From assembly GCA_963718665.1 (NCBI GenBank), contig OY970359.1:768001-832000 (forward strand): 64,000 nucleotides of DNA. The letters are read 5' to 3'. Position 1 is the first letter of the stretch. The number at the start of each line of letters is the position of its first letter. Of this stretch, positions 25,047 to 61,332 are shown piece by piece. Under the pieces are notes generated by a model. That model was not told where the DNA came from and made no database searches. It saw nothing but the letters and a program-made list of their open reading frames with translations. This DNA comes from an uncultured Phycisphaerales bacterium (GTDB lineage Bacteria > Planctomycetota > Phycisphaerae > Sedimentisphaerales > Anaerobacaceae). The translations under genes and the position numbers were made by a program.

Positions 25047-25118
25047 CAGCAAAATACGTTGCTTTAAGGTCAGCTTTCCCAAAAACTTAGCATCGGATGA
25101 GTTTTTTTATGGTACGGG
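25047..25118 (+). repeat. Array repeat copy 1 (right half)
   Basis: ..AAGGTCAGCTTTCCCAAAAACTTAGCATCGGATGAGTTTTTTTATGGTACGGG. Confidence 0.85.
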
Positions 25119-25330
25119 ATATGCGAGTCAAATTGCGAGGCGATGACAGACTGATTGGTGTGCCCGTCAAAACGGGTAAGCGTTTATTCTTCTGTCGCCG
25201 AACATTGAAAGCGTTTTGATGATATAATAGTGTGAAGTGGCTGTTTGCAATAAAAGGCCAGATGAGAACGTCTGAAAGAAATAGCGGGATAGGGTATTAA
25301 ATAATGGGGCTGAAGATAAGTTAAGGAATA

Positions 25331-26035
25331 ATGAAAATGAAAACGACAAGATTTACGTTAATTTCAATCGTGGTATTGGGCATTTTGATTGGGCAGTCAA
25401 ACTCGGCTTTGGCACGCACCAATGTATCTATGGGTGTTGGCGTTGGCTTTCCGGGTTTTTATGGTGGTTACCGCGCCGGTCCATACGGGTATCCGCATAA
25501 TTACCATTATTGGGGACCGGGCTGGGGTGGGCGGTACAATTATCCGTACGGCAGGACCATTATTGTCTCCGGTGGATATTGGTATGACTGGGGGCCGGAC
25601 TATTATGTTGTCGACCAGCCGATAATCGAAAGCGCCCCGGTGGTTGTTGAAAACCAAACAGTGGTGGGTTCGACAAACTCACCACAGGTTGTACAGCCAA
25701 AGCGAATCGATAAGGAGACACAGGCACTACTTAAAACCCTGCGATACAAGAGAGGCGTGCTTCTCAAGCAGCTTAAGACAGGTGACAAAGAGCAGCGAAT
25801 GCAAGCGATAAAAGAATTGGCGGCATTCTCTTTTGATGATAACGTTAGACAATCCCTTGAGAAAGTTCTGCTCTCGGACCCTGACCCCGAATTGCGAACA
25901 GAAGTTGCGAATGCATTCGGCGAAGTGAAGAACGTCAAAGCCATGGCTGCCCTCGAAAAAGCGAGGGTAGAAGATGCGGATGAGAATGTTCGCAAAGCAG
26001 CCGACCAGGCAATCAAAAACCTGGGGAGCAACTAA
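25331..26035 (+). CDS. Exported protein, Gly/Tyr-rich N-terminus plus HEAT repeats
   Basis: Signal peptide; 'DPDPELRTEVANAFG', 'DENVRKAA'. Confidence 0.75.
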   Translation: MKMKTTRFTLISIVVLGILIGQSNSALARTNVSMGVGVGFPGFYGGYRAGPYGYPHNYHYWGPGWGGRYNYPYGRTIIVSGGYWYDWGPDYYVVDQPIIESAPVVVENQTVVGSTNSPQVVQPKRIDKETQALLKTLRYKRGVLLKQLKTGDKEQRMQAIKELAAFSFDDNVRQSLEKVLLSDPDPELRTEVANAFGEVKNVKAMAALEKARVEDADENVRKAADQAIKNLGSN

Positions 26036-26103
26036 GTTCAACTTCTGTTTACAGATTGAATTCTGTAATAATAGGTGTATGGTCGCTGGGGCAAGGTAAC
26101 AAG

Positions 26104-26285
26104 CCCGTACTGCCCAACCATCAGGCCGTCCTCCTGTATGACTTCAAAAGCCCACAAGACGCTCCAGACGTAGGAATTATGCTGCATAACTGCTAAAAAG
26201 TCGACCAATTTCAACAAAGTATGCTGATTACTAAGATTAGCTTTCCTAAATATTTAACGTCGGATGAGTTTTTTTATAGTACGGG
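26104..26285 (+). mobile_element. Array repeat copy 2 (near-complete MITE-like element)
   Basis: CCCGTACT...AGTACGGG ends; internal CATCAGGCC..CTCCTGTATGACTTCAAAAGCC and GTCGACCAATTTCA blocks. Confidence 0.88.
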
Positions 26286-26287
26286 AT

Positions 26288-28669
26288 TCACACATGTTTG
26301 CCCGCCTTGCCCAGACCCCATTTCCAGTTGCGGATTTCCGGCATATCTTCGCCGTGCTTGTCGATGTACTGTTTGTGCTCGATGAGCTTGTCCTTGAGCT
26401 GCTGCTTAAGGTAAACGCCCTTGTCGCCGGTCTGCGGCAGTCGGTCGATGGTATCCATCACGAGATGGAAGCGGTCCAGTTCGTTCAGCACCGTCATGTC
26501 AAAGGGCGTGGTGATGGTGCCCTCTTCCTTGTAGCCGCGGACGTGGAAGTTGTCGTGGTTGGTGCGGCGGTAGGTCAGCCGGTGGATCAACCACGGATAA
26601 GCATGGAAGGCGAAGATGACCGGCTTGTCCTTGGTGAAGAGCTCGTCGAAATCTATGTCGCTCAACCCGTGCGGGTGCTCCGTGCTGGGCTCCAGCTTCA
26701 TGAGGTCGACGACGTTGACCACCCGGATTTTCAGGTCGGGCAGATGCTCTCGTATAATTGAGACGGCGGCGAGCGTCTCCAGTGTAGGCACGTCGCCACA
26801 GCAGGCCATGACCACGTCGGGCGCAACGCCCTGGTCGTTGCTGGCCCACGGCCAGATGCCGATGCCCTCGGTGCAGTGCTTGACGGCGGCGTCCATCGTC
26901 AGCCACTGCGGCGCCGGGTGTTTGCCCGCGATCACGACATTAACGTAATGGCGGCTGCGCAGGCAGTGGTCCATCACCGACAGCAGACAGTTTGCATCCG
27001 GCGGAAGGTAAACACGCACGACTTCGGCCTTCTTGTTCACGACGTGGTCGATGAAACCGGGATCCTGGTGAGTGAAGCCGTTGTGATCCTGGCGCCAGAC
27101 ATGCGAGGCCAACAGATAGTTTAAGGAGGCGATCTTCCGCCGCCACGGCAGGTGCGATGTGACCTTCAGCCACTTGGCGTGCTGGTTGAACATCGAATCG
27201 ACGATATGGATGAACGCCTCGTAGCAGTTGAAGAGTCCATGCCGCCCGGTGAGCAGGTAGCCCTCGAGCCAGCCCTCGCATTGGTGTTCGCTGAGCATTT
27301 CCATCACGCGCCCAGTGGGCGCGAGAAATTCGTCGTTCGGAACGGTCGCGGCGTCCCATTGGCGTTTGGTAACTTCAAAGAGGGCCTCCAAGCCGTTGGA
27401 GAGCGTCTCGTCAGGGCCAAAGACCCGGAAATTCCGCTGGTCACTGTTCAGCTTTGCAACATCGCGCAGGAAACGCCCGAGCACATGCGTATCGCCGATG
27501 CCAGCCGTCCCCGGCGAGGGCACGTCCTCCGCGTAGTCGCGGAAATCCGGCATCCGCAGGTCGCGGAGCAGAATGCCGCCGTTGGCGTGGGGATTTGCGC
27601 CCATGCGTCGTTCGCCCTTCGGCGCAAGTTCGGCCAGTTCCGGTTTCAGACGGCCCTGCTTATCGAAGAGTTCCTCCGGCCGGTAGCTCCTCAGCCATTC
27701 TTCCAACAGCTTGAGGTGTTCGGGATGGGTGGCCGGATCGGAGAGCGGCACCTGGTGCGAACGGAAAGTGCCTTCAACCTGCAGGCCATCGACCATCTTA
27801 GGCCCCGTCCAGCCCTTGGGTGAATTGAGGACGATCATCGGCCAGCGAGGACGCACGCAGTTGCCGCGAACGCGGGCATCCTGCTGGATTCTTTTTATCT
27901 CCTCGACCGCCATGTCAAGCGCCGTAGCCATGGCCTCATGCATCAGCTCTGGCTCGTGACCCTCGACGAAGTATGGCGTCCACCCGTAGCCGCGGAGTAA
28001 CTGTTCCAATTCCTCGCGGGTGATGCGGGCGAGGAGAGTCGGGTTGGAAATCTTATAGCCGTTGAGATGCAGGATAGGCAGCACCGCGCCATCGGTGGCC
28101 GGATTGAGAAACTTGTTGGAATGCCACGCTGTGGCCAGCGGTCCCGTTTCCGCCTCGCCATCGCCGACAACGCAGGCAACGACGAGATTGGGATTGTCGA
28201 ACACCGCCCCGAACGAATGGCTGAGCGAATAGCCCAGCTCGCCGCCCTCGTGGATCGAGCCCGGGCACTCCGGTGATGCGTGACTTGGAATTCCTCCGGG
28301 AAACGAAAACTGAATAAAGAGCTTCCGAAGTCCGGCCTCATCCTGGCTGATATTGGGATAGATCTCGCTGTAAGTGCCCTCGAGATAAGTGTTGCCCACG
28401 ACTGCCGGGCCGCCGTGACCGGGGCCGGAGACGTAAATCATGTCGAGGTCGTATTTTTTGATGACCCGGTTCAAGTGCACATAAATGAAGTTCTGCCCGG
28501 GTGTCGTGCCCCAGTGTCCCAGCAGCATGTGTTTCACATCCGCGAGCGTCAGCGGCCGCTTCAGCAGCGGATTGTCGTAGAGATAAATCTGGCCAACCGA
28601 CAGATAGTTGGCGGCACGCCAGTAGGCATCCATCTTGTGGAGCAGTTCCGGGGAAAGAGTTTTTGTCGT
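26288..28669 (-). CDS. xfp: Phosphoketolase (XFP family)
   Basis: 'LLGHWGT', 'GPGHG', 'HEGGELGY', 'GDGEAETGP', 'LSEH'; first in-frame ATG is 28633, while the codon positioned after the RBS (28669) is ACG. Confidence 0.95.
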
Positions 28670-28687
28670 GATTCAATTCTCCTTTTT

Positions 28688-29899
28688 TCAGCCAAGGCCG
28701 AGAACACGGCAAACCGTCTTGGCTATCATGCATTCTTCGTCCGTGCGGATGACGCGAATAGCGACTCGGCTGGTCTGTGCAGAAATCACGCCCTCATTCG
28801 CCGCGTTTCGCTTTTCTTCGAGTTCGATTCCAAGAAATCCCAGCCCATCACAAATCCGGGCGCGGACCGTGGACGCATTCTCTCCGATACCGCCGGCGAA
28901 TACCAGTGTATCCAGTCCGCCCAACGCCGCCGCAAATGCGCCGATCCATTTCTTGACCTGATAGCAAAACATCGCGACCGCTTCAGCCGCCCGCACATCC
29001 TGCGTTTCACGGTCGAGCAAGTCACGCATGTCTGAACTGGTTTCAGAAATTCCGAGCAGACCGGACTGGAAATTGACCATCTCGTTGAATTGCTTATCGC
29101 TCATTTTTTCAGTGCGCGCCAGATACCAAACCAGTCCGGGATCGATATCGCCTGAGCGGGTGCTCATCGGCACCCCGGCTGTCGGGGTGAAACTCATGCT
29201 TGTGTCCACGGGTCTGCCGTCACGCACCGCCGCCAAACTTGCCCCATTGCCGAGGTGGGCGAGGATGACCCGGCCTTGTGCCGCTTCCGACCCGGCTAAG
29301 CGGGCCAGTTCTCCCATTAGAAACGCATACGACAACCCGTGAAATCCGTACCGCCGCACCCCTTGCGATTCGTAGCGTCGCGGGATAGGCAACAACCGGG
29401 CCACGCGCGGCAGGTCATGGTGAAAAGCCGTGTCGAAACACGCCACCTGGGGCAGGTCAGGAAATCGGTGATGAAACGCCTCGGTCAACAGTATCTCCTC
29501 CGGCAAATGCTCCGGATCGAATGGACTAAGCCAGCGCAGCTCCTCAACCATTTCCGCAGTGATTCGCTGCGGCTTGCTATACTTCGGCCCGCCATGCACC
29601 ACGCGATGCCCCACCGCGGTCAATGCATCGCGCCCGCCGCGTTCCTCGATCCAATCCATCAGAGCGCCTACCGCCACTGTGTGATCCGGCGCCTTAACCA
29701 ACCGCGAAAAGTTGTCCGCCCGGCTCAATCCTTTCACCCGCAAGGTGGCCTCCGGCAGTCCAATCCGCTCAATCTCGCCCCCCAGAATCCGTCGGGGCGA
29801 GTCACCGGCCTCGAACAATGCGAACTTGATGCTCGATGAGCCACCATTGATTGTCAGCACGGTAGCGTGAGTCGGTTTTGTGGTTGACCGGTTTGTCAT
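28688..29899 (-). CDS. ackA: Acetate/propionate kinase
   Basis: 'TINGGSSSIKF', 'GHRVVHGG', 'FDTAFH', 'RRYGFHGLSY', 'HLGNGAS'; GGAGG RBS before ATG 29899. Confidence 0.95.
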   Translation of the reverse strand: MTNRSTTKPTHATVLTINGGSSSIKFALFEAGDSPRRILGGEIERIGLPEATLRVKGLSRADNFSRLVKAPDHTVAVGALMDWIEERGGRDALTAVGHRVVHGGPKYSKPQRITAEMVEELRWLSPFDPEHLPEEILLTEAFHHRFPDLPQVACFDTAFHHDLPRVARLLPIPRRYESQGVRRYGFHGLSYAFLMGELARLAGSEAAQGRVILAHLGNGASLAAVRDGRPVDTSMSFTPTAGVPMSTRSGDIDPGLVWYLARTEKMSDKQFNEMVNFQSGLLGISETSSDMRDLLDRETQDVRAAEAVAMFCYQVKKWIGAFAAALGGLDTLVFAGGIGENASTVRARICDGLGFLGIELEEKRNAANEGVISAQTSRVAIRVIRTDEECMIAKTVCRVLGLG

Positions 29900-29972
29900 T
29901 CTGCAACCTCCAATCCAAAAGAAGCCAGTTTCGCACACGTGGACTTGTAATCCGTGTGACAAATACCTCGAA

Positions 29973-32519
29973 TCATCGCTGCCACAGTATTTGAGCGGCT
30001 TCCAGAGGAACCGCAACACCATCGTAGTTCGGTATCACCCTCGCTGTATAATCTTTCGCAGGCCGGGTCGCTGATACCGTTACGCTGTAGATGTAACCTC
30101 TGACAGCGCCTACGAGTTGTCGGCCTCGCTTCATTTCCTGCCGTACCGGACTACTGCCATTTATCCCATCCGCATAAAGCTCCACTCGAACCGCATCCGG
30201 GTCGATGTCGTTGAGATAGACCTTAACTTCAAATATATGCTGCTGTCCGTAGGTTTCAACCTTTATTTCGCCGAAACGCATCGCAGCCCATTTTTGTTCG
30301 AGAGTATGCCGCCAATCTACCAGCTTTTTGCCCATCGCACCTTTATCGGAAGCACGCACACGATAGGATGCCGCAGCCGGAAGGTAATGCTGCTCGGTGT
30401 ATTCTCGAACGGTGCGGTTGGCTGAAAAGCGAGGCGTCAACTTCGCCATGCTTTCACGAATACGCGCTACCCATGCTTTAGGAAGCCCCTTCTCATCACG
30501 GTTATAAAACTCGGGAACCAACTCGTGTTCGAGCAGGTTGTAAAGTGCGTTTGCTTCGACAGCATCCCAGGCCGGGTCTTCGCCATGTTCCTGGCCGTCT
30601 CCCAGCGCCCACCCAACTTCCGGCGTGTATGCTTCGGCCCACCAGCCATCCAACTCCGACAGATTGATGCCTCCATTGACAAGCACTTTCATGCCGCTGG
30701 TTCCACTCGCCTCCCAAGGCCTCCGTGGTGTGTTAATCCAGACATCCACCCCCTGCACCAAGTGCCCGGTCAAATGCATATCATAGTCGCTAAGGAATAC
30801 CGCATGCTGGCGCACCTCGGGCCGCCGGATAAAACGCGTCCATTCCTGAATCATTTCCTGCCCTGCCTTGTCCTCCGGATGGGCTTTGCCGGCGATAATG
30901 AGTTGAACAGGACGCTGAGTATCGGTCAACAGGCGAAGTAGTCGCTGCGGATCATGCAGCAGCAGATTCGGTCTCTTGTAGGTCGCGAATCGGCGTGCAA
31001 AACCAAGCGTTAATGCGTTTGGGTCAAATAGATGCTTTGCATTGTCAACCATTTCGGGTGATGCGCCTGACTCAGCCAGTTGCCGAGACAGCCGTTCACG
31101 GGCATATTCAACGAGGGACTTACGGGCCTCAGCACGAAATTGCCAGAGCCTGGCGTCGGAGATGCGGCGAATGTTCTGCTCCATTGTTTCGGTCGTTCCC
31201 AGCCAACGGTCTTTTCCGCAGGCCTCAGTCCAAAGTTCGTCGGCTGCCGCTGAATCCCAGGTCGACGTATGGACCCCGTTGGTAACGGACCCGATGGGCA
31301 CTTCGTCTGCCGGCCAGTGCGGAAAGAGAGGTTCAAATAGGTGCCGGCTGACTTTCCCATGCAAGCGGCTCACGCCATTTACCGCCCCGCTGCCTCTTAT
31401 GGCGAGGTAAGCCATATTGAAATACTCCGACGAGTCGTTAGAGTTTTGCCGTCCAAGAGCGAGCAAATCGTGGATTGGTATATTAAGCCTCTTCCGGGCA
31501 TACCAATCAAGGTATTGCTCGATAAGGGCTGGAGCGAAACGGTCAAAGCCGGCGGCTACCGGTGTGTGCGTGGTGAATAGATTACCAGCTCGCGTGACAG
31601 CCAGTGCTGCTTCAAAAGGTTGGCCTGTATCTTCCATGAAATTTCTTGCGCGTTCCAGCACAGCGAAGGCGGCATGCCCTTCATTGAGGTGGCAGACCTC
31701 GGGCTGGATGCCAAGCGCACGGAGCAGCCGCCATCCTCCAATCCCGAGTATTAGTTCTTGTTTAAGTCGCAACTCCGACCCACCACCGTAAAGCTCGCTT
31801 GTAATTCCTCTATGAGCTGGAAAGTTCGCAGCGTCATTGGTGTCCAGCAGGTAAAGTTTAACTCTGCCGACCTGGACCTGCCAGGCGCGCAGCCACACCG
31901 AATAACCGGGAAGCACAACTTCCAGCCGCAACCACTCCCCGTTCGGTCTTCGCAGAGGCGTGATTGGCAATTGCCCCGGGTCGTTGTATGGAAACAGGGC
32001 TTGTTGTGCTCCATCCTTATCAATCACCTGGCGAAAATAGCCCTGCTGGTATAGCAGCCCCACGCCGACCACCGGCACACCCAAATCGCTGGCGGCTTTG
32101 AGCTGGTCGCCTGCCACATTACCAAGCCCGCCCGAATATATGGGCAGGGCCTCGCTCAGCATAAATTCCATACAGAAATAAACGACACAGGTCAAAGGAG
32201 CTTTTGGATAACTTTGTTGAAACCACGCAGGCGCTGCCGACTTGCGGCCCTTGAGTTCCAAAAGCTCATCCACTTCCCTGCGAAATCCGGTGTTAGCCAA
32301 TAAGTTTTTAAGTTTTTCACGTGAAACCGTCTGCAAAACGACCCATGGATTTGATGTCAGTTCCCACAATTCCGGGTCGAGCTGTCTCCAGACTTTGTCC
32401 CCATAATGGCTCCACGACCATCGCATATCCAGAGCAAGCTCAGCCAGAGAATCGAACCCTTCGACTTCCACAGGCATAAAAGAGTATATTGGATTGCCGA
32501 CATGTGTTTGCTTGTACAT
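29973..32519 (-). CDS. glgP: Alpha-glucan phosphorylase
   Basis: 'YSGGLG', 'HLNEGH', 'FARRFATYKR', 'EASGTSGMK'. Confidence 0.95.
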   Translation of the reverse strand: MYKQTHVGNPIYSFMPVEVEGFDSLAELALDMRWSWSHYGDKVWRQLDPELWELTSNPWVVLQTVSREKLKNLLANTGFRREVDELLELKGRKSAAPAWFQQSYPKAPLTCVVYFCMEFMLSEALPIYSGGLGNVAGDQLKAASDLGVPVVGVGLLYQQGYFRQVIDKDGAQQALFPYNDPGQLPITPLRRPNGEWLRLEVVLPGYSVWLRAWQVQVGRVKLYLLDTNDAANFPAHRGITSELYGGGSELRLKQELILGIGGWRLLRALGIQPEVCHLNEGHAAFAVLERARNFMEDTGQPFEAALAVTRAGNLFTTHTPVAAGFDRFAPALIEQYLDWYARKRLNIPIHDLLALGRQNSNDSSEYFNMAYLAIRGSGAVNGVSRLHGKVSRHLFEPLFPHWPADEVPIGSVTNGVHTSTWDSAAADELWTEACGKDRWLGTTETMEQNIRRISDARLWQFRAEARKSLVEYARERLSRQLAESGASPEMVDNAKHLFDPNALTLGFARRFATYKRPNLLLHDPQRLLRLLTDTQRPVQLIIAGKAHPEDKAGQEMIQEWTRFIRRPEVRQHAVFLSDYDMHLTGHLVQGVDVWINTPRRPWEASGTSGMKVLVNGGINLSELDGWWAEAYTPEVGWALGDGQEHGEDPAWDAVEANALYNLLEHELVPEFYNRDEKGLPKAWVARIRESMAKLTPRFSANRTVREYTEQHYLPAAASYRVRASDKGAMGKKLVDWRHTLEQKWAAMRFGEIKVETYGQQHIFEVKVYLNDIDPDAVRVELYADGINGSSPVRQEMKRGRQLVGAVRGYIYSVTVSATRPAKDYTARVIPNYDGVAVPLEAAQILWQR

Positions 32520-32609
32520 TGTCACTCCTTAAGATTTTTCCTTAACGGAAACTCCAACCGCATCACCGACGATCCCGTTACAGAATCGGTTTCAAAGAGG
32601 CGCAATTGC

Positions 32610-32722
32610 AGGAATTATAGCGCAAAACCGAAGGGAAGTCGACCAATTTCAGCAAAACAAGCTGCTTGTAAGGTCAGCTTTCCCAAAAACTTAGCATCGG
32701 ATGCGTTTTTTTATAGTACAGG
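32610..32722 (+). repeat. Array repeat copy 3 (right ~60%)
   Basis: AGGAATTATAGCGC..GTCGACCAATTTCAGC..CGGATGCGTTTTTTTATAGTAC. Confidence 0.85.
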
Positions 32723-32739: not shown

Positions 32740-33159
32740 TCACCCTCTATTGGAACTTTGTGGCTGTAAGCACTTTTTTGTAAGCCAAAAAACGCTTTCC
32801 CATATTACCAATGCAACAATGGTAGCGCCCGTATCGATAAGCCATTCTGAGAAACTTGTCGAGCGACCAAAAAACTGCTGCGTGTATTCATCTATAGCAC
32901 CATAAATCGTCATAATCAGCAGCACCACCACGATGCGGCGTAGTGAGCTGAAATTGAATGCTGCTAAAGTTAAGATGAACCAACTGCTCAATCCCAAAAA
33001 GCCCAATACGTGCAGAGCAAAATGTCCCAAGTCACGAATCTCTCTTGGAATTGTGTTATATGGAACATGGGTAGCAGTGAATGCTCCTATCCACATAAGA
33101 ATGAAAATGACCAAGATTAGTTTTCGATGACGATATAGCAGTTGATTATTACTGTGCAT
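32740..33159 (-). CDS. VanZ-family membrane protein
   Basis: 'ATHVP', 'YGAIDEYTQQFFGRS..D'. Confidence 0.8.
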   Translation of the reverse strand: MHSNNQLLYRHRKLILVIFILMWIGAFTATHVPYNTIPREIRDLGHFALHVLGFLGLSSWFILTLAAFNFSSLRRIVVVLLIMTIYGAIDEYTQQFFGRSTSFSEWLIDTGATIVALVIWESVFWLTKKCLQPQSSNRG

Positions 33160-33356: not shown

Positions 33357-33388
33357 GTACAGGACTTGAACCTGTGACATCCTGCGTG
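33354..33388 (-). pseudogene. tRNA 3'-half remnant (Val-like), att-like
   Basis: Reverse complement CACGCAGGATGTCACAGGTTCAAGTCCTGTACCGC has a full T-arm. Confidence 0.65.
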
Positions 33389-33400
33389 CGGGGCAAATGG

Positions 33401-33900
33401 TTACGCGTTTGTTGTGAAGATATCGCGGGCGATATCCTCGCCTGCGTTGCTGGCATAGTAATGCTCAACTGCTTTCTGGCCTTTGCTTTCGAACATTTTT
33501 GCTGAAGAAAATGCGCCGTTTTTCATCAAAATGGCGATGACTATGCACGCGGCAACGCTGGCGAATGAATTTTTGTACTTGGCGCATCTTTCGATAATGT
33601 TCAGGTCGGGTCGGATATTTCGGAGATATTCGGCTTTAGCAGTTGTTCGCAGGCAGTGTTTGAGCACACCGATTGCCTGTGTATTGGCTCGCATCAGCAG
33701 ATTGAGATTGTGCGGCTGGGATTTTAACAGCGATATTGCAAGCTCAACCTTGCCGAGACGCGCCAATCGTCGCTGGCAACGCGGGCAGTCGGCAATATGA
33801 TTTTGTATCCAGTGTCGGTCAGGACTGAAACTGTTGGCCATCAGCCGAATGCCCGGTCTCTAAGTTGTCTGCAGTAATTTTTCCCCTTCGAGGCCCACAT
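33401..33900 (-). CDS. Zinc-binding anti-sigma factor-like protein (probable 1-nt frameshift near 33845)
   Basis: HxxxCxxC ('HIADCPRC'), one TM helix, follows ECF sigma; upstream ATG at 33900 is in another frame. Confidence 0.65.
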
Positions 33901-33904
33901 ATAA

Positions 33905-37047: not shown

Positions 37048-37055
37048 GGATTTTT

Positions 37056-51461: not shown

Positions 51462-51534
51462 CAGACATTTCCTATTTGATCCGATATTTCCGACTTAATG
51501 CTTTTTCGACTTTCAACTCCATTATTCGCGGCAG

Positions 51535-52379: not shown

Positions 52380-52385
52380 CAGCAA

Positions 52386-52519: not shown

Positions 52520-52633
52520 ATATCGCTGGCTGTTATTAGTTCCTCAAAAAATTTCAAAATAAAACTCTTATTCACTCAGCATAGATTATAATATCCTGTA
52601 AAAATAATCCTTTACTGCAAAGGAAAACAAGCT

Positions 52634-54095
52634 GTGCTGGCGGGAAAAATTAACGTTTTGCGGCAAGATATCGCTTTCAGATTAAGTCTCTGGTATGCCC
52701 TTATTCTGCTGCTGCTGTTTACAATATCTTTTATATCCTTCTCTTTGCTGGCCAAGACCGGAATGGGGAAAAATGCGGAAAAGGATACGTTAGCCGATGT
52801 TGATGAATGTAAATCCATATTCCAGTCCGAGGGGTTAGAGGGTCTGCGTAAGGAGTTTCTTTTGCAAGCACATGCCGCTGGCAAAGGAAATATCAGCCTA
52901 AGTGTTCTGAATTCTAAAGGCCTGATACTTATAATTTCAGATTCGCCAAAATGGCAAAATTTTGCCGTTCAACCTGACAGGCTGAACCTTGCACTTGACC
53001 GAGACAAACCGGTGGTGGACATTATCAAAGTTCCTAGTTTTAAGAACAAGGCTATTGTTGTTTATGCCCGTTTGTCGCCGGACAAAATACTGAGAATTGC
53101 CCATCTTTTACGCCAGGATGAAAATTTCCTTTACGACCTGCAGAAAACCCTGATAGTCGTCATGGCAATTACACTGGTAACTGTTATTATCGCCGGCTGG
53201 TTTATACTGAAGCAGGTCATCGGGCGAGTAGTTGTGGTAACCAATACCGCCTTGTCCATCAAGGGCAGCTCGCTGAGCAAACGGGTCCCTGTCAGCGGGC
53301 TGATGGATGAGGTTGATCGTCTTGCTCAAGCCTTTAATAACATGTTAGACAAGATTGAATCCCTCGTAAAAAGCCAGCAGGAAATAACCGACAACGTGGC
53401 CCACGACCTTAGAATCCCGCTGACAAGAATTCGCCTTATCGCTGAATCGCTTTTGACCGCACGAGGCGAAAAAACTGATTCACAAGAATCTGTTAGTATG
53501 ATAATAGAAGAATCCGACCGTCTTTTGGAAATGATTAATACAATGCTCGAAATCAAATCTATCGAGATGGGCATAGCTATATGGAACCTGACCGACGTCG
53601 ACATTGCCGAGGTCATAAAACAGGCGTGTGAATTCTTCCAGCTGGCGGCTGAGGACAAAGGACTTACTCTGAAGTTAAATCAAATTATATCTTTTGTGGT
53701 CAAAGCCGATCTGCGCTGTCTGCAGCGGGTCTTTTCCAACCTGATTGACAACGCTGTCAAATATACTCCGCCAGCGGGTAATATCGAGATTACCATGCGG
53801 GCCATCAATCATGAGATAGCTGTTGAAATTTCCGATACGGGAATCGGCATCGCACCCGATGCCCTACCACGAATATTTGAACGTTTCTACCGCGGTGACA
53901 AAAGCCGAAACGTCTCCGGATTGGGACTTGGCCTGAGCCTGGCGGAAACAATTATCAAAGCGACATGGCGGAAGAATTGAAGTTGAAAGTACGGTTGGCA
54001 ATGGAAGTACCTTTACCGTCTTTTTGCCCGGCTGCAGGCCGGCCAATAACATGACCAAAAAAGAGGAACTGTGTAATGAGAGCTCTGATAGTTGA
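52634..54095 (+). CDS. HAMP-HisKA-HATPase sensor kinase (CusS-like), +1 frameshift at ~53963
   Basis: 'VAHDLRIPL', 'NLIDNAVKY', 'DTGIGI', 'GLGLGL'; expected 'HGGRIEVES..GSTFTVFLP' continues in another frame. Confidence 0.88.
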
Positions 54096-54756
54096 AGATG
54101 ATGAGAAGATCGCCTCGTTTATCCTAAAGGGATTAAAAGAGAACGGCTTTGCTGTCGATCATACCGGCAATGGTGAAGACGGCCTTCACATGGCTTTGAC
54201 CGAGCCGTACGATGCTGCCATTATCGATATCATGCTGCCCAAGCTCGACGGCCTCACACTTATCAAAGAAATGCGGAAGAACAATATTAAGACCCCGGTG
54301 ATAATTTTAAGTGCCCGAGGCACCATTGATGACCGTGTAAAAGGTCTCCATGCAGGGGGCGACGATTACCTCACTAAGCCTTTTGCCTTTACCGAGCTCC
54401 TGGCCCGTGCCCAGTCCCTTATTCGAAGGGTCAGCGGCATCGCCGAACCCACCAGCTTATCTGTTCATGACATCTCTATGGATTTTCTCAGGCGGGAGGT
54501 TACCCGTGCGGGCAAAAAAATCGAACTCACGTCCCTTGAATTTGCGCTTCTCGAATACCTCATACGAAACGTCAACACCGTTATCTCCAAGACAATGATT
54601 ATGGAACATATATGGAAATATAATTTCGACCCGCAGACAAACATCGTTGATGTCCTGGTCTGCCGGGTGCGAAATAAGATCGACCGCGATTTCGGCGAGA
54701 AATTGATACATACTCTTCGCGGGGTCGGTTACATCCTTAAAACGCCTGAATTGTAA
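54076..54756 (+). CDS. OmpR/PhoB-family response regulator (CusR/CopR-like)
   Basis: 'LIVEDD', 'DIMLP', 'DDYLTKPF', 'IHTLRGVGY'. Confidence 0.93.
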   Translation: MRALIVEDDEKIASFILKGLKENGFAVDHTGNGEDGLHMALTEPYDAAIIDIMLPKLDGLTLIKEMRKNNIKTPVIILSARGTIDDRVKGLHAGGDDYLTKPFAFTELLARAQSLIRRVSGIAEPTSLSVHDISMDFLRREVTRAGKKIELTSLEFALLEYLIRNVNTVISKTMIMEHIWKYNFDPQTNIVDVLVCRVRNKIDRDFGEKLIHTLRGVGYILKTPEL

Positions 54757-54820
54757 CACCGAAAAAGACAAAACCTTACAGATTTCCCTTCTTTCTTTTG
54801 ACCTCTTCAGCAAGCATCTT

Positions 54821-54867
54821 AACATTACAAAAATGTAATCTTAAAGAAAGGTTCTTGTTAACTTGGG
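54821..54867 (+). promoter_or_regulatory. 47-bp regulatory element, copy B
   Basis: AACATTACAAAAATGTAATCTTAAAGAAAGGTTCTTGTTAACTTGGG. Confidence 0.75.
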
Positions 54868-54978
54868 AAGCACATAATGCCATGTAAAGTCGTTTTCTGA
54901 AATCCGAAAGGATAAATTTGTGGTAAAGACGGCAAAGAAGACCTTGCATGAGCCAGATTTAACGTTCTTGGTGCGCGT

Positions 54979-56469
54979 ATGATAAAGTACAAGCATGTTC
55001 TCGCTCTGAACCCGTACTTTGGGGAAGCTACCGCTGCAATGGGGATTTTCCCACCAACAGGCCTTGAGTACATTGCCGCAAGCATGAAGGGCTTGGTAGG
55101 GAAGGTGACACTTCTGGACCTTCGCAATGAGAAGGCCTACCAGAACCCTAAGAATCTCAGTGAGTTCATCAGAGCTGAGATCGATTTGCTCTGCATCAGC
55201 ATCGGATGGGAAACTAAATTTAAGAAAATCTGTGATTTCGTCGCTCAATTGCCGCCTGAAGTCACCACAGTTGTCGGGGGCTACAAGGCCACTATGGAAG
55301 TTGAACATCTGTTCGACTGTTGTCCGAATATAGATATGGTCGTACGAGGTGAAGGTGAAGAGATTATACAGCAGATTGTCAAAGGGGTTCCGCCAGAGAA
55401 TATCCCCGGGTTGTCGTATCGGACAAATGGAAATATCGTTCACAACGAAAACTGTCCATTACCCGACATCACAAGCATTCCGTTTCCAGACCGGTCTCTT
55501 AGAAGGCATGATTATAACATGATAGTGCAGGATGTCCGCCTCAGCAGGCAGACATTTGACACGATATTGTCGGCAAGGGGCTGTCCGTTTAAATGCAAGT
55601 TCTGCACCTTTAGCCTCAATCCGCTCGGGCAGAAAAGAAGCTACACGGAACGGCCGGTCGAGTCGGTCATTGAAGAACTGAAGACGATTACCGCCAACGT
55701 CGTGCTTTTCAGCGATGACAACTTTTCCACAAACCCAAAGAGGAGTGAGAGACTTTGCGATCTGATCATCGCAAACAACATCAGGAAGACTTTTCTTATC
55801 CAAACCAGGATTGACATCGCCAATCATCCCGGGCTACTCGACAAGGCATGGAAAGCAGGATTCAGAATCTTTCTTATCGGAATCGAGTCCCCTCACGATT
55901 GGATTCTCGAACAGATTCAAAAGGGCATCACCCAACAGCAGATCCGGGATGCGTTTGCGGTACTGACACAGTATGACTTCTTTCTGCATGGGTATTTCAT
56001 CTACGGCAATATCGGCGAGACGGAAGAAGAAATGCTCTACATCCCGAAGTTTGCTAAGGAGCTCAAGCTGGATTCCATCAGTTTCCAGAAACTCCGCGTC
56101 GAGAAATTCTCACCCCTGAAGGAAATAGTTGAAACAACGCCGGGCTACTACTACAAACGTATCGGCGGTTCCGTCTATTCGGACCGTTACGGGCCTAAGG
56201 AACTTAAGCGAATCCGGAACAGAATCCGCTCGGCATTCTACGATCTCCCGCAGATTCTCCATATCGCCAAAAAGGCCGGGCGATTGGGCCTTTTCCGTTG
56301 GAGCGATTTGATGATTGCATTGCCTAATTTACCCCGCCTCGTGTATGGGTTGGCCAGACGAAAAACGCGAAAGAAAAAGTACGTCGTCAGCTTAAATGAG
56401 ACAGTAAAGAGGCCTGTTTTGGTTGACGACGTACATTACGGCAAGCTGACTTACTCAAAATTAATCTGA
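54979..56469 (+). CDS. B12-binding-domain radical SAM protein
   Basis: 'PPTGLEYIAA', 'VVRGEGE', 'RGCPFKCKFC', 'DDNF', 'GIES'. Confidence 0.9.
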   Translation: MIKYKHVLALNPYFGEATAAMGIFPPTGLEYIAASMKGLVGKVTLLDLRNEKAYQNPKNLSEFIRAEIDLLCISIGWETKFKKICDFVAQLPPEVTTVVGGYKATMEVEHLFDCCPNIDMVVRGEGEEIIQQIVKGVPPENIPGLSYRTNGNIVHNENCPLPDITSIPFPDRSLRRHDYNMIVQDVRLSRQTFDTILSARGCPFKCKFCTFSLNPLGQKRSYTERPVESVIEELKTITANVVLFSDDNFSTNPKRSERLCDLIIANNIRKTFLIQTRIDIANHPGLLDKAWKAGFRIFLIGIESPHDWILEQIQKGITQQQIRDAFAVLTQYDFFLHGYFIYGNIGETEEEMLYIPKFAKELKLDSISFQKLRVEKFSPLKEIVETTPGYYYKRIGGSVYSDRYGPKELKRIRNRIRSAFYDLPQILHIAKKAGRLGLFRWSDLMIALPNLPRLVYGLARRKTRKKKYVVSLNETVKRPVLVDDVHYGKLTYSKLI

Positions 56470-56508
56470 GAGCAAAAAAATAGTGAATTCAGTTGAGTTT
56501 AATGGTGT

Positions 56509-58125
56509 GTGTGTTTTCAACAGCTTCACTATCCCCATTATTTGATGACTTTAGAGCTGACAAAAACAAAAGCATTCTTGATAGCCCTTCTTGTTTGGGC
56601 AGGGATATACCTTCCTTATTTGGGTGCGCCTGAATTTCAATGTGAAGAAGCCCGTGGAGTCCTTCCAGCCATAAATATGCTCAAAACCGGCAACTGGATA
56701 GTGCCTGTTGTTGGAGGCAGGGAATTTTACAGCAAGCCCCCCGGAATCAACTGGATAGTTGCTGCTTCATTTTTAATCACCGGCGAAAAAACGGAGTTTA
56801 CCGCCCGGCTTCCGACGGTCATGTTTATTTTGATATTTGCAGCACTTCTAATCTGGATGCCCGGTCCGTGGCTCAGCCTTCCGGCCAGATTTATTTCCAC
56901 ACTGGTTTTTCTGACAAGTATCGGCATAATAGAATGGGGCCGAATGATAGAAATCGAGGCCATCTACACGGTTTTGACAGGCCTATCAATTTTATGGTGG
57001 TTAAACATCTGGAGCCGCAACGGTTCCAAATGGCTATTGTGGATTGTACCTTCTGTCGTGATTGCTTACGGCTTTCTTACGAAAGGTCCCTTTATCGTGA
57101 TATTTTTTTACAGCACAATCTTTATGGTTTTGCTCTATAACAAAAGTCTTAAGGAGTTTTTTGTCGTTCCACATATTATCGGGATTGCTATTATGGTGTC
57201 TGTGAGTTTGGGCTGGCTGTACCTTGCCTTATCTCGCGCTTCGGCACCTGCCCTGTCCAGCGATATGATGGGGCAGTTTATTGGACATACCATATTCCAT
57301 AGTTTCAGCTTAATGCTCTTTGCTGACAAAATTGTAAAAGCCCTTGCGCTTTTGCTTCCATGGCTTATATTTTTGCCTATTTTATGGGATAAAAATATTG
57401 TGGAACGCCTTGAACCCCAGAATCGCAGCACATTCAAGGCCTGCAGGACGGCGTTGATAATCTGTTTTTTACTGCTTAATCTTATGCCGGGTGCCCAAGG
57501 ACGATACTCCCTTCCTCTTATCCCTTTGGCCGCTTATTTGCTGGGCTGGATATTATCACTTCATCAAGGATTTACCTTGTCTGACCGAGTATGGAAGAAT
57601 TTGCTTCTCGGATGTTTCATCGCATTACCCGTGACAGCGGTTGTGGGGTTGTTTGTGGTAACGGCAAAGTGGCCCGCCTTTATTGTAACTGCGGTGACTA
57701 TTTGTGTTGCAATCACCGTTTTCCTGAAGCGAGACCTGCTGCGAAACGCGCTTAATCTTTCTACGGCAACTGCCGTTGTGGTTGCCTTCTCTATGCTTCT
57801 GTATGCAGTATATGGTATATTTTTCGTCATACGTTATGAGGTAGATAGGCCCAGCGCGTATACAGTAAACAGGATTGTCCCTCAAGGCGATACTGTGTAC
57901 CTGTTTGATTCCAGATACCAGACTTTCTACTTTTATATTCGTCAGCCATTTAAGTATCTGGTGTCCGAAGATGAGATTGACAAAGACGTACACTATTTGG
58001 TTCTGGAAGAAAGAATCCTGCAGGATTTAGTAGCGAACCATCAGCTTTATCGGCGTTCGCCTAAAATCCTGTACGAATTTCCGGAAAAGATTCCGACGCG
58101 ATACAGGTTGGTCGAGCTGAATTGA
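56509..58125 (+). CDS. ArnT/PMT-family (GT39/GT83-like) membrane glycosyltransferase
   Basis: 'EAR..AINM...NW', 'KPPG..W', 'ARLP', 'LTKGP', 'LLPW', 'RYSLPL.P'. Confidence 0.85.
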   Translation: MCFQQLHYPHYLMTLELTKTKAFLIALLVWAGIYLPYLGAPEFQCEEARGVLPAINMLKTGNWIVPVVGGREFYSKPPGINWIVAASFLITGEKTEFTARLPTVMFILIFAALLIWMPGPWLSLPARFISTLVFLTSIGIIEWGRMIEIEAIYTVLTGLSILWWLNIWSRNGSKWLLWIVPSVVIAYGFLTKGPFIVIFFYSTIFMVLLYNKSLKEFFVVPHIIGIAIMVSVSLGWLYLALSRASAPALSSDMMGQFIGHTIFHSFSLMLFADKIVKALALLLPWLIFLPILWDKNIVERLEPQNRSTFKACRTALIICFLLLNLMPGAQGRYSLPLIPLAAYLLGWILSLHQGFTLSDRVWKNLLLGCFIALPVTAVVGLFVVTAKWPAFIVTAVTICVAITVFLKRDLLRNALNLSTATAVVVAFSMLLYAVYGIFFVIRYEVDRPSAYTVNRIVPQGDTVYLFDSRYQTFYFYIRQPFKYLVSEDEIDKDVHYLVLEERILQDLVANHQLYRRSPKILYEFPEKIPTRYRLVELN

Positions 58126-58223: not shown

Positions 58224-58317
58224 GAATTATATCGCAGAACCGAGGGGAAGCCTCAATAGTTTATAAGGCCAGATGTCCCATAAACTCAGCATAGGATGAG
58301 TTTTTTTATAGTACGGG
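58224..58317 (+). repeat. Array repeat copy 12 (partial, internally deleted)
   Basis: GAATTATATCGCAGAACCG..ATAAGGCCAGATG..GGATGAGTTTTTTTATAGTACGGG. Confidence 0.82.
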
Positions 58318-58465
58318 AGTGTATTCGGGAAATATGCAATATTTGTCCACGAAATCCGTCTTGGTATTCAATTAAGGCAAAAGATCATTGAAAAATGTAA
58401 ACGGGTGAGGTTAGAATCGCGGAATTATTACGGGATAAAAAACAGGCGATAAAGGAGAAAAACAA

Positions 58466-59521
58466 ATGGTTACAAAAGAAACGGTCTTACAAAGTGTGCT
58501 GTCGATAACGGCGATTGTCTGCGTGGCAGCATTTTGCGGCGTCGCATCAGGCGAAGAGTCAAGTTACAAGCTGATTAAGAGGGTGCCGATAGGCGGCGAG
58601 GGCGGCTGGGATTATCTTGCCGTCGATAGCGCGACAAATCGATGTTATATCTCGCACGCCAATCACGTCGTTGTTTTTGATACGGAGAAAGAAAAAGTAA
58701 TCGGCGACATAAACAATACGCCCGGCGTGCACGGGATAGCAATCGCCGCGGGGCTTAATAAAGGTTACATAAGCAACGGCGGCGACAGCACGGTAACGGT
58801 TTTCGATACGGCGACGCTGAAAGAAACCGCCAGGATTAAGGTAGGCAACAGGCCCGACGCCATTTTGTTCGACCCGGCGACAAAACGCGTCTTCACATTC
58901 AACGCAGGCAGCAAAGACAGCACCGTTATCGACGCCGTTAAAGACATAAATATCGGCAATATACCTTTGGGCGGCAAGCCGGAATTCGCGCAATCCGACG
59001 AGAAGGGGCAGGTATTCGTCAATATGGAGGACAAAAACGAAATCGCCGTGATAGACGCCGAAAAGCTGACCGTTACGAACAATTGGCCGATTTCGCCCTG
59101 CGAATCACCCAGCGGATTGGCCATTGACCGCAAAAACAAGCGGCTCTTTTCGGTCTGCTCAAACGGCAAAATGGCGATAACCGATTACACAACGGGCAAG
59201 AGTTTAGCAACGCCTGCTATAGGCAGAGGGCCTGACGCGGCGGCTTTTGACCCCGAAACAGGTTTTGCATTCAGCTCCAATGGAATGGATGGGACATTGA
59301 CGGTGATAAAGGAAGCCCCGGCCGGCCAATTCAAGGTTGTCGAAACCGTGGCAACTGCGCCGATGGCGCGCACTATGGCGCTGGACCCGAAAACGCACAG
59401 GATATACCTTGTTACGGCGAAAGTAAAACCGCCCGCACCTGGAGAGCAACAGGGCGGACGCCGCAGAAACTTTGAGCCGGACTCATTTGAATTGCTGATT
59501 GTCGGTCCAGCCGCAAAATAA
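58466..59521 (+). CDS. YncE-family beta-propeller protein
   Basis: 'GGWDYL', 'GVHGIA', 'PDAILFDP', 'ARTMALDP'. Confidence 0.88.
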   Translation: MVTKETVLQSVLSITAIVCVAAFCGVASGEESSYKLIKRVPIGGEGGWDYLAVDSATNRCYISHANHVVVFDTEKEKVIGDINNTPGVHGIAIAAGLNKGYISNGGDSTVTVFDTATLKETARIKVGNRPDAILFDPATKRVFTFNAGSKDSTVIDAVKDINIGNIPLGGKPEFAQSDEKGQVFVNMEDKNEIAVIDAEKLTVTNNWPISPCESPSGLAIDRKNKRLFSVCSNGKMAITDYTTGKSLATPAIGRGPDAAAFDPETGFAFSSNGMDGTLTVIKEAPAGQFKVVETVATAPMARTMALDPKTHRIYLVTAKVKPPAPGEQQGGRRRNFEPDSFELLIVGPAAK

Positions 59522-59659
59522 AAAACGTTTACGCCGGGTTCATGATTTAACTTATGCCGGATAATACAGTTTGGCGTTGGCCGAAATACCCTGTTTTGAA
59601 GGGTTTTTGCCGAGGGTAACGGCGACAAGATTATAAAATGACAAGGATTTGAGCTAACA

Positions 59660-61033
59660 ATGCACTCGTTATATCGAACACTGCGGACAGCAATACGCTC
59701 TTTAAGACGGCATATTATGAGGTCGGCGCTGACCTGCTTAGGAATCGTTATCGGCATCGCATCCGTCATCGCGATAATCGAAATCGGTCAGGGGACAAAC
59801 TATTCGATACAGCAGACAATTGCTGCGATTGGCGCCAACGTAATACAGATTGACCCCAGCCAGGTGATTGTTGGAGGCGTGAGCACCGGGGCGGGAGGCA
59901 AGCCGACACTTAGCCCCGATGACTGCGACGCGATTCTACGGGAGTGCAGCGCGGTTCGCTGCGGCTCGCCGAGCGTCGATTGCAGAATGCAGATTGTTTA
60001 CAGCAATCGCAACTGGTCGCCGATGAACATACTGGGGGCATCGCCTGATTACCTGGTGGTCCGTAACTGGACAAACCTGGCCGAGGGAGAGGTGTTTACA
60101 GAACACGACGTGCGAAGCGGGGCACGGGTGTGCTTAGTCGGGCAGACGATTGTCAGAGAACTTTTCAAAGGTGAGAGCCCTGTCGGCAAAGAGATTCGCG
60201 TCAAGAACGTAGCGATGAAGGTGATTGGCGTACTCAGCGAAAAAGGCGCGAATATGATGGGCAGAGACCAGGATGATTTTGTTGTTGCGCCGTGGACTAC
60301 CGTCAAATTTCAGTTGTCGGGTTCAAGGCAATCCCAAACTGCCGTAACGACCACCCCGTCATCAACTACGCAGGAAAAAGCCCTTAGCCAACTCTACCCG
60401 GACCAGCAGGTCCAGCTTTACGCGCAACAGTCAGCTGCCCAGGCGGCAAACAGGCCTCAGATGACGCGTTTTAACGACCTCGACGATATCTGGGTTTCGG
60501 CGGCTTCGCAGGAAGAAATCCCACAGGCCATCCAGCAGATTACGAGCTTACTCCGCGAACGGCACCGGATACCAGAGGGCGCACCCGACGACTTCAGAAT
60601 CCGCGACCTGACGGAAATTTCACAGACACTGGCCTCGACACAGAAAACAATGATACACCTGTTGACATGCGTAGCGTTAATATCGCTGATAGTCGGCGGT
60701 GTTGGTATTATGAACATAATGCTGGCTTCGGTAATGGAGCGAACGAGAGAAATTGGCGTCCGGATGGCGATAGGCGCACGAGCTAGAGACATCCTTCGCC
60801 AGTTCCTGACCGAAGCTGTAATTCTTTGTCTTCTCGGTGGCGCGGCGGGCATACTGCTTGGCCGGGGCGCTTCAATAGCGGTTACGGTGTTTCTGAAATG
60901 GAAGACAATATCATCGGTGCCTGCGATAGTGGCTGCTTTCGTGGTCGCCGCCAGCGTGGGAATCATCTTCGGTTTTTATCCGGCGTGGAAGGCATCTCGC
61001 TTAGACCCTATTGAGGCCTTGCGTTACGAGTAG
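59660..61033 (+). CDS. MacB/FtsX-family ABC permease
   Basis: '[10 protein letters not shown]', '[21 protein letters not shown]', 'DPIEALRYE'. Confidence 0.93.
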
Positions 61034-61140
61034 TGAGAAGCCAGAGAACTCAACAAACTAAAGGCCAGCAAACCAGTTTGCTGCAAACGCCCGTAAGGTG
61101 CAAATATTCACATATTTATCAGCGATTAGATTCATCATGA

Positions 61141-61332
61141 CCCGTACTGTAAAAACATTCGCCCCACCCGTCAGGCCGCCCTCTTGTATGACTTCAAAAG
61201 CCTACCAAGATGCTCCCAATATAGGAATCATATCGCGGAACCAAAGGAAAGGCGACCAATTTCAGCAAAATAAGTTGCTTGTAAGTTCAGGTGTTCTTAA
61301 AACTTAACGTCGGATGAGTTTTTTTATAGTAC
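61141..61332 (+). mobile_element. Array repeat copy 13 (full length)
   Basis: CCCGTACTGTAAAAACATTC...CGGATGAGTTTTTTTATAGTAC. Confidence 0.9.

What the first reader, a model, noticed from the sequence alone, without database searches (positions are those of the whole stretch)
25047..61332. Integron-like cassette array punctuated by 13 co-oriented transposon-end repeats
Seen: 13 copies of one ~190-bp family (starting 25047, 26104, 32610, 33185, 39890, 43496, 43952, 48536, 48867, 50316, 52386, 58224, 61141). All share one orientation, all are intergenic, none lies in the housekeeping flanks, and the array stops ~440 bp from the tRNA-fMet 3' end. Intervals hold mostly self-contained modules of 0.3-6.5 kb: HEAT gene; glgP-ackA-xfp; VanZ; ECF + T2SS; two secreted proteins; beta-helix + S8; a 66-aa ORF; SMR pair + GNAT-like; TCS + radical SAM + ArnT-like; YncE + MacB. 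Random MITE insertion should give mixed orientations and a dispersed distribution. Inference: an iterative, oriented gene-capture platform in which an rve/DDE transposase acting in trans adds cargo next to an existing end, analogous to an integron but without attC sites or IntI. I do not know a described system with this layout.
Basis: partly seen in the sequence, partly recalled or inferred. Interest (0 to 1): 0.88.

Follow-up and report, generated by a model that had tools for sequence, protein, structure and literature searches.

The report
Mini-transposon-jointed gene cassette array
Next to a tRNA gene this bacterium keeps a row of gene modules separated by same-facing remnants of one jumping element, and related species carry the same modules between the same remnants in other orders and places, so the remnants appear to act as joints for swapping genes.

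Summary
The 13 co-oriented repeats are real, but only about six are near full length. They are a ~190-bp internal-deletion derivative (MITE) of a 1.23-kb insertion sequence. That IS encodes an rve/DD35E transposase, has 5'-CGT termini and makes no visible target duplication; its intact ORF lies between the same ends in 1 of 24 genus genomes. Similar arrays occur in the genus, often 3' of tRNAs (118 of 130 neighbouring pairs co-oriented). Fifteen inter-repeat intervals recur end to end in other genomes, six of them from this window, mostly with new neighbours and sometimes at other loci. Several cargo genes sit at repeat-free ancestral loci in relatives, so they were captured. The layout is that of IS26 pseudo-compound-transposon arrays, so it is not without precedent, but here the joints are non-coding, ~79% identical and from another transposase family. 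No IntI, no attC hairpin, no gene-orientation rule. Whether transposase or RecA does the swapping is unresolved; the copies are old, some joins bypass the repeat, and tandem accretion at tRNA-fMet also shaped the island. The scan's notes showed no earlier report of this repeat. New variant of a known kind.

The parts
24973..25046 (-). Decayed 'E' arm (repeat family that elsewhere ends in a tRNA-fMet 3' 9-mer); outer boundary of the island
   Evidence: blastn of the 46561 arm; same boundary in G017, G007, G006
25047..25118 (-). MITE copy 1, upstream-end (IRL) half
   Evidence: HMM 114-188
25331..26035 (+). Cassette K: HEAT-repeat gene
   Evidence: Pfam; same interval end to end in G017:C2 at another array position
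26104..26285 (-). MITE copy 2, near full length
26288..32525 (-). glgP-ackA-xfp module, compacted from a larger mobile island
   Evidence: Pfam; parts are spaced apart in G006, G002, G008, G019
32571..32722 (-). MITE copy 3, lacks the downstream end
   Evidence: glgP plus this end recurs in G007 and G017, alignment stopping at the terminus
32740..33159 (-). Cassette L: VanZ-like gene
   Evidence: shared end to end with G007:C4
33178..33356 (-). MITE copy 4, near full length
33357..33400 (-). 3' half of tRNA-Val(TAC), joined to the element terminus 3 nt short of its end
   Evidence: 35 nt identical to the host tRNA-Val(TAC)
33401..39843 (.). Cassette F: ECF sigma plus T2SS/pilus-type operon
   Evidence: repeat-bounded in G007 and G017, repeat-free beside tRNA-Val(TAC) in more distant relatives
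39846..39895 (-). Second, decayed 3' half of tRNA-Val(TAC)
39882..39945 (-). MITE copy 5, IRL fragment
40126..43435 (+). Cassette G: two predicted secreted proteins
   Evidence: shared end to end with G007, G017
43496..43690 (-). MITE copy 6, both termini
   Evidence: chimeric relative to its G007/G017 counterparts
43777..43948 (-). 'D6' arm ending in the tRNA-fMet 3' 9-mer (att-like junction)
43954..44006 (-). MITE copy 7, fragment
44114..46315 (-). Beta-helix gene
46561..46640 (-). 'E' arm ending in the tRNA-fMet 3' 9-mer
46713..48467 (+). S8 peptidase copy, identical in its core to the native locus at 2.58 Mb
   Evidence: twofold depth in run X1
48535..48587 (-). MITE copy 8, IRL fragment
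48604..48804 (-). 66-aa ORF
48867..49002 (-). MITE copy 9, interrupted by the sister IS
49003..49991 (+). Sister IS (TGT ends) with internally deleted rve gene 49108-49923
   Evidence: intact 340-aa relatives in G014, G016, G017
50099..50270 (-). Second 'D6' arm with tRNA-fMet 9-mer
50316..50494 (-). MITE copy 10, near full length; same flank as the intact IS in G020
50626..52206 (-). Cassette H: EamA/SMR pair plus a 223-aa ORF; second copy at 1.426 Mb
52365..52520 (-). MITE copy 11, lacks the downstream end
52634..58125 (+). Composite interval: two-component pair, B12 radical SAM, ArnT-like gene
   Evidence: parts occur separately in relatives
58224..58317 (-). MITE copy 12, IRL half
58466..61033 (+). 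Cassette M: YncE-like plus MacB, from two separate native loci
61141..61335 (-). MITE copy 13, both termini, IRL facing the tRNA
61621..61762 (+). Lone left end of the sister IS
61769..61842 (-). tRNA-Met(CAT), initiator type by sequence features (recalled criteria); anchor of the island

Best explanation
The repeat is a MITE of a CGT-ended rve/DD35E insertion sequence, and the array works like an IS26 pseudo-compound-transposon array. Step 1 (junctions seen, enzyme inferred): the transposase joined element termini to new targets without target duplication, so that a gene came to lie between two directly oriented copies. Step 2 (inferred): cargo plus one copy left as a circle. Step 3 (outcome seen, catalyst unknown): the unit re-entered by conservative recombination with a resident copy, which forces the same orientation and leaves one copy between neighbours. 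Arrays collect downstream of tRNAs, inside islands first opened by integrase-driven elements, and units travel between loci and between congeners. Deletion trims them to about one gene. G000 has no intact cognate transposase, so any present activity needs RecA or an incoming IS.
For: Intact 357-aa ORF between the same two ends in G020; repeat consensus matches its 5' end (93/111) and 3' end (69/79); D177, D243, E278 invariant in 27 of 27 homologues; fold closest to IstA, Mos1, TnsB and retroviral integrases. Identity to unjoined homologous flanks drops to chance at the terminal base (0.90 at -12, 0.59 at -2, 0.26 at -1; 58 of 239 flanks had such a homologue). No duplication at the termini in 68 of 68 two-ended copies; 0 of 8 copies with both flanks traced show an empty site (read by eye). 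118 of 130 neighbouring pairs co-oriented. 15 interval classes, 40 of 118 intervals, shared end to end; neighbours differ 30 times, agree 4 times, unknown 40 (pairs not independent); shared cargo keeps its orientation in 55 of 66 pairs. Same cassette at different loci, e.g. a 7.9-kb unit at 1.68 Mb in G000 but at tRNA-fMet in G006 and G008. The repeat beside a shared cassette is near-identical when the neighbour is shared and usually unrelated beyond ~25 nt when it is not. G000 carries a repeat where relatives have MacB.
Against: Full copies are ~79% identical within arrays, within genomes and between genomes, on a star-like tree: no recent copying. Cognate intact ORF in only 1 of 24 genus genomes, and its downstream terminus deviates from consensus. 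No circle junction in contigs of four runs (contigs are a weak test). Some joins bypass the termini: YncE-MacB, the S8 copy, the H rearrangement, ArnT with its own 36-bp direct repeats. Cassette F sits at the tmRNA locus of G019 with no repeat in the fetched 12 kb. YncE left its native site without a repeat scar. Half of the window's intervals were not found end to end elsewhere. The relatives' segments were chosen around repeat hits.
Confidence: 0.55

Rival explanations
1. Tandem accretion: integrase-driven elements integrated one after another at tRNA 3' ends, each carrying the IS/MITE beside its right arm in fixed orientation; adjacent deletions removed their backbones. The repeats are passengers, not the joints.
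For: Three extra tRNA-fMet 3' 9-mers with conserved arms (E, D6) in the window, each close to a repeat; the intact IS in G020 abuts a D6 arm; a primase plus tyrosine integrase element lies just 3' of tRNA-fMet in G020; IRL faces the tRNA at 7 of 7 tRNA/tmRNA types with a copy within 1.6 kb (threshold set after seeing the data). Mechanism described in PMC5704250 (passages).
Against: Only 3 cores for 13 repeats; shared units end at the repeat, not at the cores; units recur at different tRNA loci and in other order; no integrase in the array.
Confidence: 0.2
2. An old MITE burst seeded existing islands; orientation bias at insertion and adjacent deletions removed target duplications and brought ends close to genes; no circular units are involved.
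For: Star-like tree, 84% terminal branch length; one cargo (SMR pair) is joined at three different distances; adjacent deletion removes duplications (PMC11708052, passages).
Against: Does not explain identical two-sided junctions with swapped neighbours and swapped repeat copies, or units at different loci; intact family members also lack duplications.
Confidence: 0.15
3. Co-orientation reflects a replication-linked insertion bias.
For: 23 of 25 G000 copies, 6 of 7 clusters, have the transposase sense on the leading strand inferred from GC skew.
Against: Seven clusters give P about 0.06; the cross-genome tally was 74 to 67 with unreliable anchors; at tmRNA, Pro-CGG and Val-CAC, lagging-strand genes in G000, copies follow the tRNA (assumes conserved synteny).
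Confidence: 0.05
4. A true integron-like system: a tyrosine recombinase uses the repeat as an attC-like site.
For: Broken tyrosine recombinase genes lie inward of repeat-like ends at three G000 loci.
Against: No IntI in G000; 1 of 24 genus genomes has one, and that genome has no repeat match. The small recombinase is in 2 of 24 genomes and far below the IntI cut-off. No special hairpin (z 0.55 and -0.48). The repeat is plainly IS-derived.
Confidence: 0.05

Closest known systems
IS26-family pseudo-compound transposon arrays and translocatable units (PMC7885326, passages; PMC12561309, passages)
   Same: Cargo interspersed with directly oriented elements; single copies without target duplication; unit = cargo plus one element that re-enters at a resident copy.
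   Different: Joints are non-coding ~190-bp MITEs at ~79% identity, whereas the IS26 targeted reaction needs identity at the reacting end; the transposase has no IS6 hit; chromosomal, tRNA-anchored, metabolic and stress cargo.
MITE-flanked composite elements of Acinetobacter (439-bp MITE, PMC3934969, passages)
   Same: Two same-direction MITEs flank and mobilise cargo, by transposition or homologous recombination.
   Different: There one identical pair with a 5-bp duplication; here a dozen diverged copies shared between successive units, no duplication.
Tandem accretion of ICE/IME/CIME at tRNA 3' ends (PMC5704250, passages)
   Same: Island grows 3' of a tRNA and holds repeated copies of the tRNA's 3' end.
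   Different: Most unit boundaries here are IS termini, not att sites.
IS481 / IS3-related rve transposases
   Same: DD35E triad with K at E+7, HTH domains, best NCBIfam hit IS481.
   Different: 107.8 bits against a cut-off of 224; CGT rather than TGT termini in most members; no target duplication seen.
Integrons
   Same: Array of mostly one-gene units (60 of 118 intervals hold one ORF) that are re-ordered and exchanged.
   Different: No IntI, no attC hairpin, no common gene orientation (98 sense, 133 antisense), units up to 8 kb with their own upstream regions.

Membership tests
Integron | IntI integrase | tested here: not met
   TIGR02249: 0 in G000, 1 of 24 genus genomes
Integron | attC sites forming a stable ssDNA hairpin | tested here: not met
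   One full copy folded on both strands, z 0.55 and -0.48; Rfam finds only the tRNA
Integron | Cassette genes co-oriented with a common promoter | tested here: not met
   98 sense, 133 antisense ORFs in 118 intervals
IS26 (IS6) family arrays | IS6-family transposase | tested here: not met
   No IS6 model among NCBIfam or Pfam hits
IS26 (IS6) family arrays | Cargo between directly oriented copies, no duplication around single copies | tested here: met
   118 of 130 pairs; 0 of 68 with duplication at the termini
IS26 (IS6) family arrays | [quoted passage not shown] | not testable with these tools
   Exchange points lean towards the termini, 14 of 24 within 27 nt (read by eye), but repeated homologous recombination can give the same
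IS26 (IS6) family arrays | Circular translocatable units | tested here: inconclusive
   No credible joint in contigs of four runs over 42500-62400
IS481 family | Family HMM above cut-off | tested here: not met
   107.8 against 224 bits
IS481 family | DDE triad in an RNase H fold | tested here: met
IS481 family | TGT termini and short target duplication (recalled) | tested here: not met
   Terminal base C in 86-93% of ends with intact GTAC; CGT in near-identical intact copies; TGT in the sister IS and Streptomyces relatives; no duplication
MITE | Short, non-coding, terminal inverted repeats, derived from an autonomous IS | tested here: met
MITE | Target duplication and empty sites from simple insertion | tested here: not met
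Tandem accretion island (ICE/IME/CIME) | Repeated 3' end of the target tRNA | tested here: met
   Three extra 9-mers in the window, of 9 in the genome; similar in G017, G020, G014, G002, G015
Tandem accretion island (ICE/IME/CIME) | Integrase acting on those sites | tested here: inconclusive
   None in the array; one near the tRNA in G020, specificity untested

The most novel reading that the evidence does not exclude
An unclassified CGT-ended rve transposase performs end-to-end conservative exchange between diverged MITEs, so that the MITEs serve as attC-like joints of a genus-wide, tRNA-anchored cassette pool of single stress and metabolic genes: a DDE-driven counterpart of the integron.
Probability: 0.3. 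Interest if true: 0.88.

Novelty: new variant of a known kind. Interest (0 to 1): 0.72.

Why it matters
Arrays of directly oriented elements are known mainly from IS26-type resistance regions. Here the same layout appears in an environmental genus, built from non-coding remnants of a widespread transposase family that passes no NCBIfam cut-off and leaves no target duplication, and it moves ordinary genes: in G014 and G007 superoxide dismutase, glutathione peroxidase, desulfoferrodoxin and cytochrome c peroxidase each occupy their own interval. If the transposase catalyses the exchange, this is a second route to IS26-like behaviour and an integron analogue. An intact ORF and its ends are in hand, so the question is directly testable.

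Tried and rejected
PF00665 search of G000: no match; the cognate protein finds only the broken sister ORF. Small tyrosine recombinase as driver: 2 of 24 genomes, rejected. attC-like fold: rejected. GTAC or CG as the target duplication: considered; intact relatives vary after CGT and unjoined flanks diverge at the terminal base, so CGT/TGT is the terminus. Repeat as promoter for cargo: a -10-like hexamer is visible, but the scan called no promoter in copy 13 and downstream genes show no bias (44 sense, 47 antisense). Replichore test across relatives failed on poor anchors. Local duplication of the repeat: rejected, same-array identity 0.792 against 0.791 between genomes. Reads: no RNA holder listed; the joints seen are cross-mapping to the second H locus and to the D6 repeat. 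Viral contigs: 0 exact matches to the end pattern, 4 loci with distant transposases, not examined. PDB sequence searches: none; single-sequence model unusable. The automatic inverted-repeat calls are partly misplaced and count as weak. Paper searches: searches gave 0; searches listed nothing that describes this system by title or abstract start; some searches gave the comparators. No supplements were read. Look-ups in the scan's notes by sequence, words and genome found nothing.
Full report
Observation. The window is 768001-832000 of a single 2.61-Mb contig. An HMM of the repeat finds 13 copies between 25047 and 61336, all on one strand, at the stated places. About six are near full length; the rest keep one side. 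The genome has 25 hits at E<0.01, 13 of them in this 36.3 kb; uniform draws gave at most 6. The repeat matched 18 of 23 same-genus genomes, four of them by one weak hit only, and 0 of 37 genomes of other genera.

What the repeat is. Searching with the window's broken rve ORF led to G020:C3, where an intact 357-aa ORF lies between the two ends of the repeat. The repeat consensus aligns to that element's 5' end (93/111) and to its last codons and 3' end (69/79). It is therefore a MITE made by one internal deletion, with the transposase sense on the minus strand of the window and its upstream end (IRL) facing the tRNA. The protein has invariant D177, D243 and E278 in 27 homologues, models as an RNase H-type transposase (pLDDT 72.9; best matches IstA, Mos1, HIV integrase, TnsB), and passes no NCBIfam cut-off (IS481 107.8 of 224). 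Relatives were found in 44 of 121 family genomes, in metagenomes and in other phyla; the top named hits are Sedimentisphaerales and other planctomycete MAGs. Only G020 among 24 genus genomes has the cognate ORF intact. The ORF at 49108-49923 is a sister IS with TGT ends, inserted into copy 9 and lacking its catalytic core.

Termini. Near-identical intact copies at different sites align exactly from CGT to ACG. In 58 of 239 flanks with an unjoined homologue, identity falls from about 0.9 to 0.26 at the terminal base, with a partial drop to 0.5-0.7 over the last five bases that I cannot explain. None of 68 two-ended copies has a duplication at the termini; eight have 3-4-nt matches at other offsets. 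For the 8 copies with both flanks traced, the two unjoined homologues lie in different places. Intact relatives also show none: 0 of 21 automatic calls, several misplaced, two near-identical copies, and 3 of 3 callable of 9 copies on a Streptomyces plasmid. Simple insertion does not describe the present state of these copies.

Arrays in relatives. I fetched 52 segments (1.45 Mb) chosen around repeat hits or at the orthologous tRNA; with G000 they hold 185 hits. Of 130 neighbouring pairs closer than 15 kb, 118 are co-oriented. Where a copy lies within 1.6 kb of a tRNA or tmRNA 3' end, IRL faces it at 7 of 7 gene types; more distant cases are mixed (Val-CAC with, Ser, Thr and Leu against, Gly both). 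The 118 intervals have a median of 1.9 kb, 60 hold one ORF, and coding density is 85%.

Intervals behave as cassettes. Forty of 118 intervals fall into 15 classes shared end to end (at least 88% mutual cover), including 6 of the window's 12. Neighbours differ in 30 comparisons, agree in 4 and are unknown in 40; the pairs are not independent. Orthologous tRNA-fMet arrays read, from the far end, C-A-F-G in G007, C-A-x-F-x-G-x-K in G017, K-x-L-F-G in G000 and E-D in G006. Class D is at 1.68 Mb in G000 but at tRNA-fMet in G006 and G008; class N is near tRNA-Gly in G000 and near tRNA-Val in G017. Alignments of glgP, VanZ, MacB and YncE-MacB stop at the IRL terminus. Where the neighbour is shared, the repeat between is near-identical throughout (170 of 170, 59 of 59 columns). 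Where it is not, similarity ends within 27 nt of the cassette in 14 of 24 long comparisons, at 32-80 nt in 7 and beyond 120 nt in 3 (cassettes at least 92% identical, read by eye). Junctions are thus kept while the copy beside them changes, which means exchange by recombination in or at the repeat. The bias towards the ends fits an end-to-end reaction, but the ends are also the best conserved part, and repeated RecA crossovers would shift the same way.

Where cargo comes from. An unselected search of 24 genomes with the cargo, followed by 40 flanks not already held, found a repeat within 1 kb in only 4. The ECF-T2SS operon sits repeat-free at its tRNA-Val(TAC)-region locus in G014, G015, G002, G009, G013 and G021; in G000 it carries tRNA-Val 3' halves at both edges. 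YncE, MacB, the radical SAM gene and S8 have conserved repeat-free native loci. G000 lacks YncE at its native site without a scar, and has a repeat plus another gene where relatives have MacB. The S8 copy equals the native copy except for 8 mismatches at its edges, and that native copy is only 84-85% identical to relatives against 89-93% for its flanks, so an imported allele overwrote it. This is ordinary recombination, and it is recent.

A second process. Two arm families (E, D6) end in the tRNA-fMet 3' 9-mer at 43777, 46561 and 50099, as expected from tandem accretion of integrating elements (PMC5704250, passages). They account for the island's origin and perhaps for the polarity, not for most boundaries.

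Age. Full copies average 79% identity in every comparison class, with a maximum of 0.92 within a genome and 0.95, on a tree with 84% terminal length. Amplification is old; later history is rearrangement without copying.

Mechanism. Shown: IS origin, precise termini, no duplication, co-orientation, re-assorted units, capture from native loci. Inferred: circles of cargo plus one copy, and their entry at resident copies. Unknown: the catalyst. IS26 forms such arrays by copy-in and targeted conservative reactions, needing identity at the reacting end (PMC7885326, passages); translocatable units are also proposed for other families (PMC12561309, passages), and same-direction MITE pairs mobilise integrons (PMC3934969, passages). 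That TnsB-like enzymes without a second nuclease give cointegrates is recalled, not tested.

Against my reading: no recent identical copies, one intact ORF in 24 genomes, no circle seen, several joins that bypass the repeat, cassette F at the tmRNA locus of G019 with no repeat nearby, and a selected sample of relatives.

Verdict. A real, genus-wide cassette-shuffling arrangement that works like an IS26 array but is neither an IS26-family structure nor an integron. Ten paper searches showed no description of it; the library lacks most subscription journals. New variant of a known kind, interest 0.72.

Noticed in passing
G014:C9 6.8-18.5 kb (L032); G007:C17 43-51.5 kb (L055): Runs of one-gene cassettes rich in oxidative-stress enzymes: desulfoferrodoxin, aldo-keto reductase, SOD, glutathione peroxidase; SOD, glutathione peroxidase, di-haem peroxidase.
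   Followed up: partly
G000 2343231-2344250 and 2116014-2116784; G007:C4 11340-11972 (L029): A 214-aa tyrosine recombinase without an N-terminal binding domain, broken twice in G000, where sister-IS and repeat-type ends lie upstream; intact in G007.
   Followed up: partly
G000 1728986-1731027 (L004): Broken XerD-like recombinase gene with a C-terminal Cys motif between two inward-pointing repeat-type ends.
   Followed up: no
window 52333-52382 and 54818-54867: 50-bp inverted repeat, 96% complementary, around copy 11 and the two-component pair; origin unknown.
   Followed up: no
window 56411-56446 and 58154-58189: 36-bp direct repeat flanking the ArnT-like gene.
   Followed up: no
window 50623-52302 and G000 1425798-1427600: The SMR pair and the next ORF are duplicated at 99.9-100% with one part inverted; twofold depth in X1.
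   Followed up: partly
element flanks, G000 and relatives: Both outer flanks share a W-Y-S-C bias next to the terminus, and identity to unjoined sites sags over the last five bases: target preference or bases carried from the donor.
   Followed up: partly
G017:C2 8.05-9.49 kb (L075): An intact third IS of the family sits 17 bp from the tRNA-fMet 3' end, nested at the start codon of a sister IS.
   Followed up: partly
NZ_CP108854.1 (L343-L374): A Streptomyces linear plasmid holds 43 matches to a distant family member; the full-length ones are only 72-75% identical to the query copy.
   Followed up: partly
all repeat hits: IRL halves outnumber IRR halves 74 to 14; unexplained, partly common descent of E-fused copies.
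   Followed up: partly
G004:C269 3-773: The one IntI above cut-off in the genus is in a genome without the repeat.
   Followed up: no
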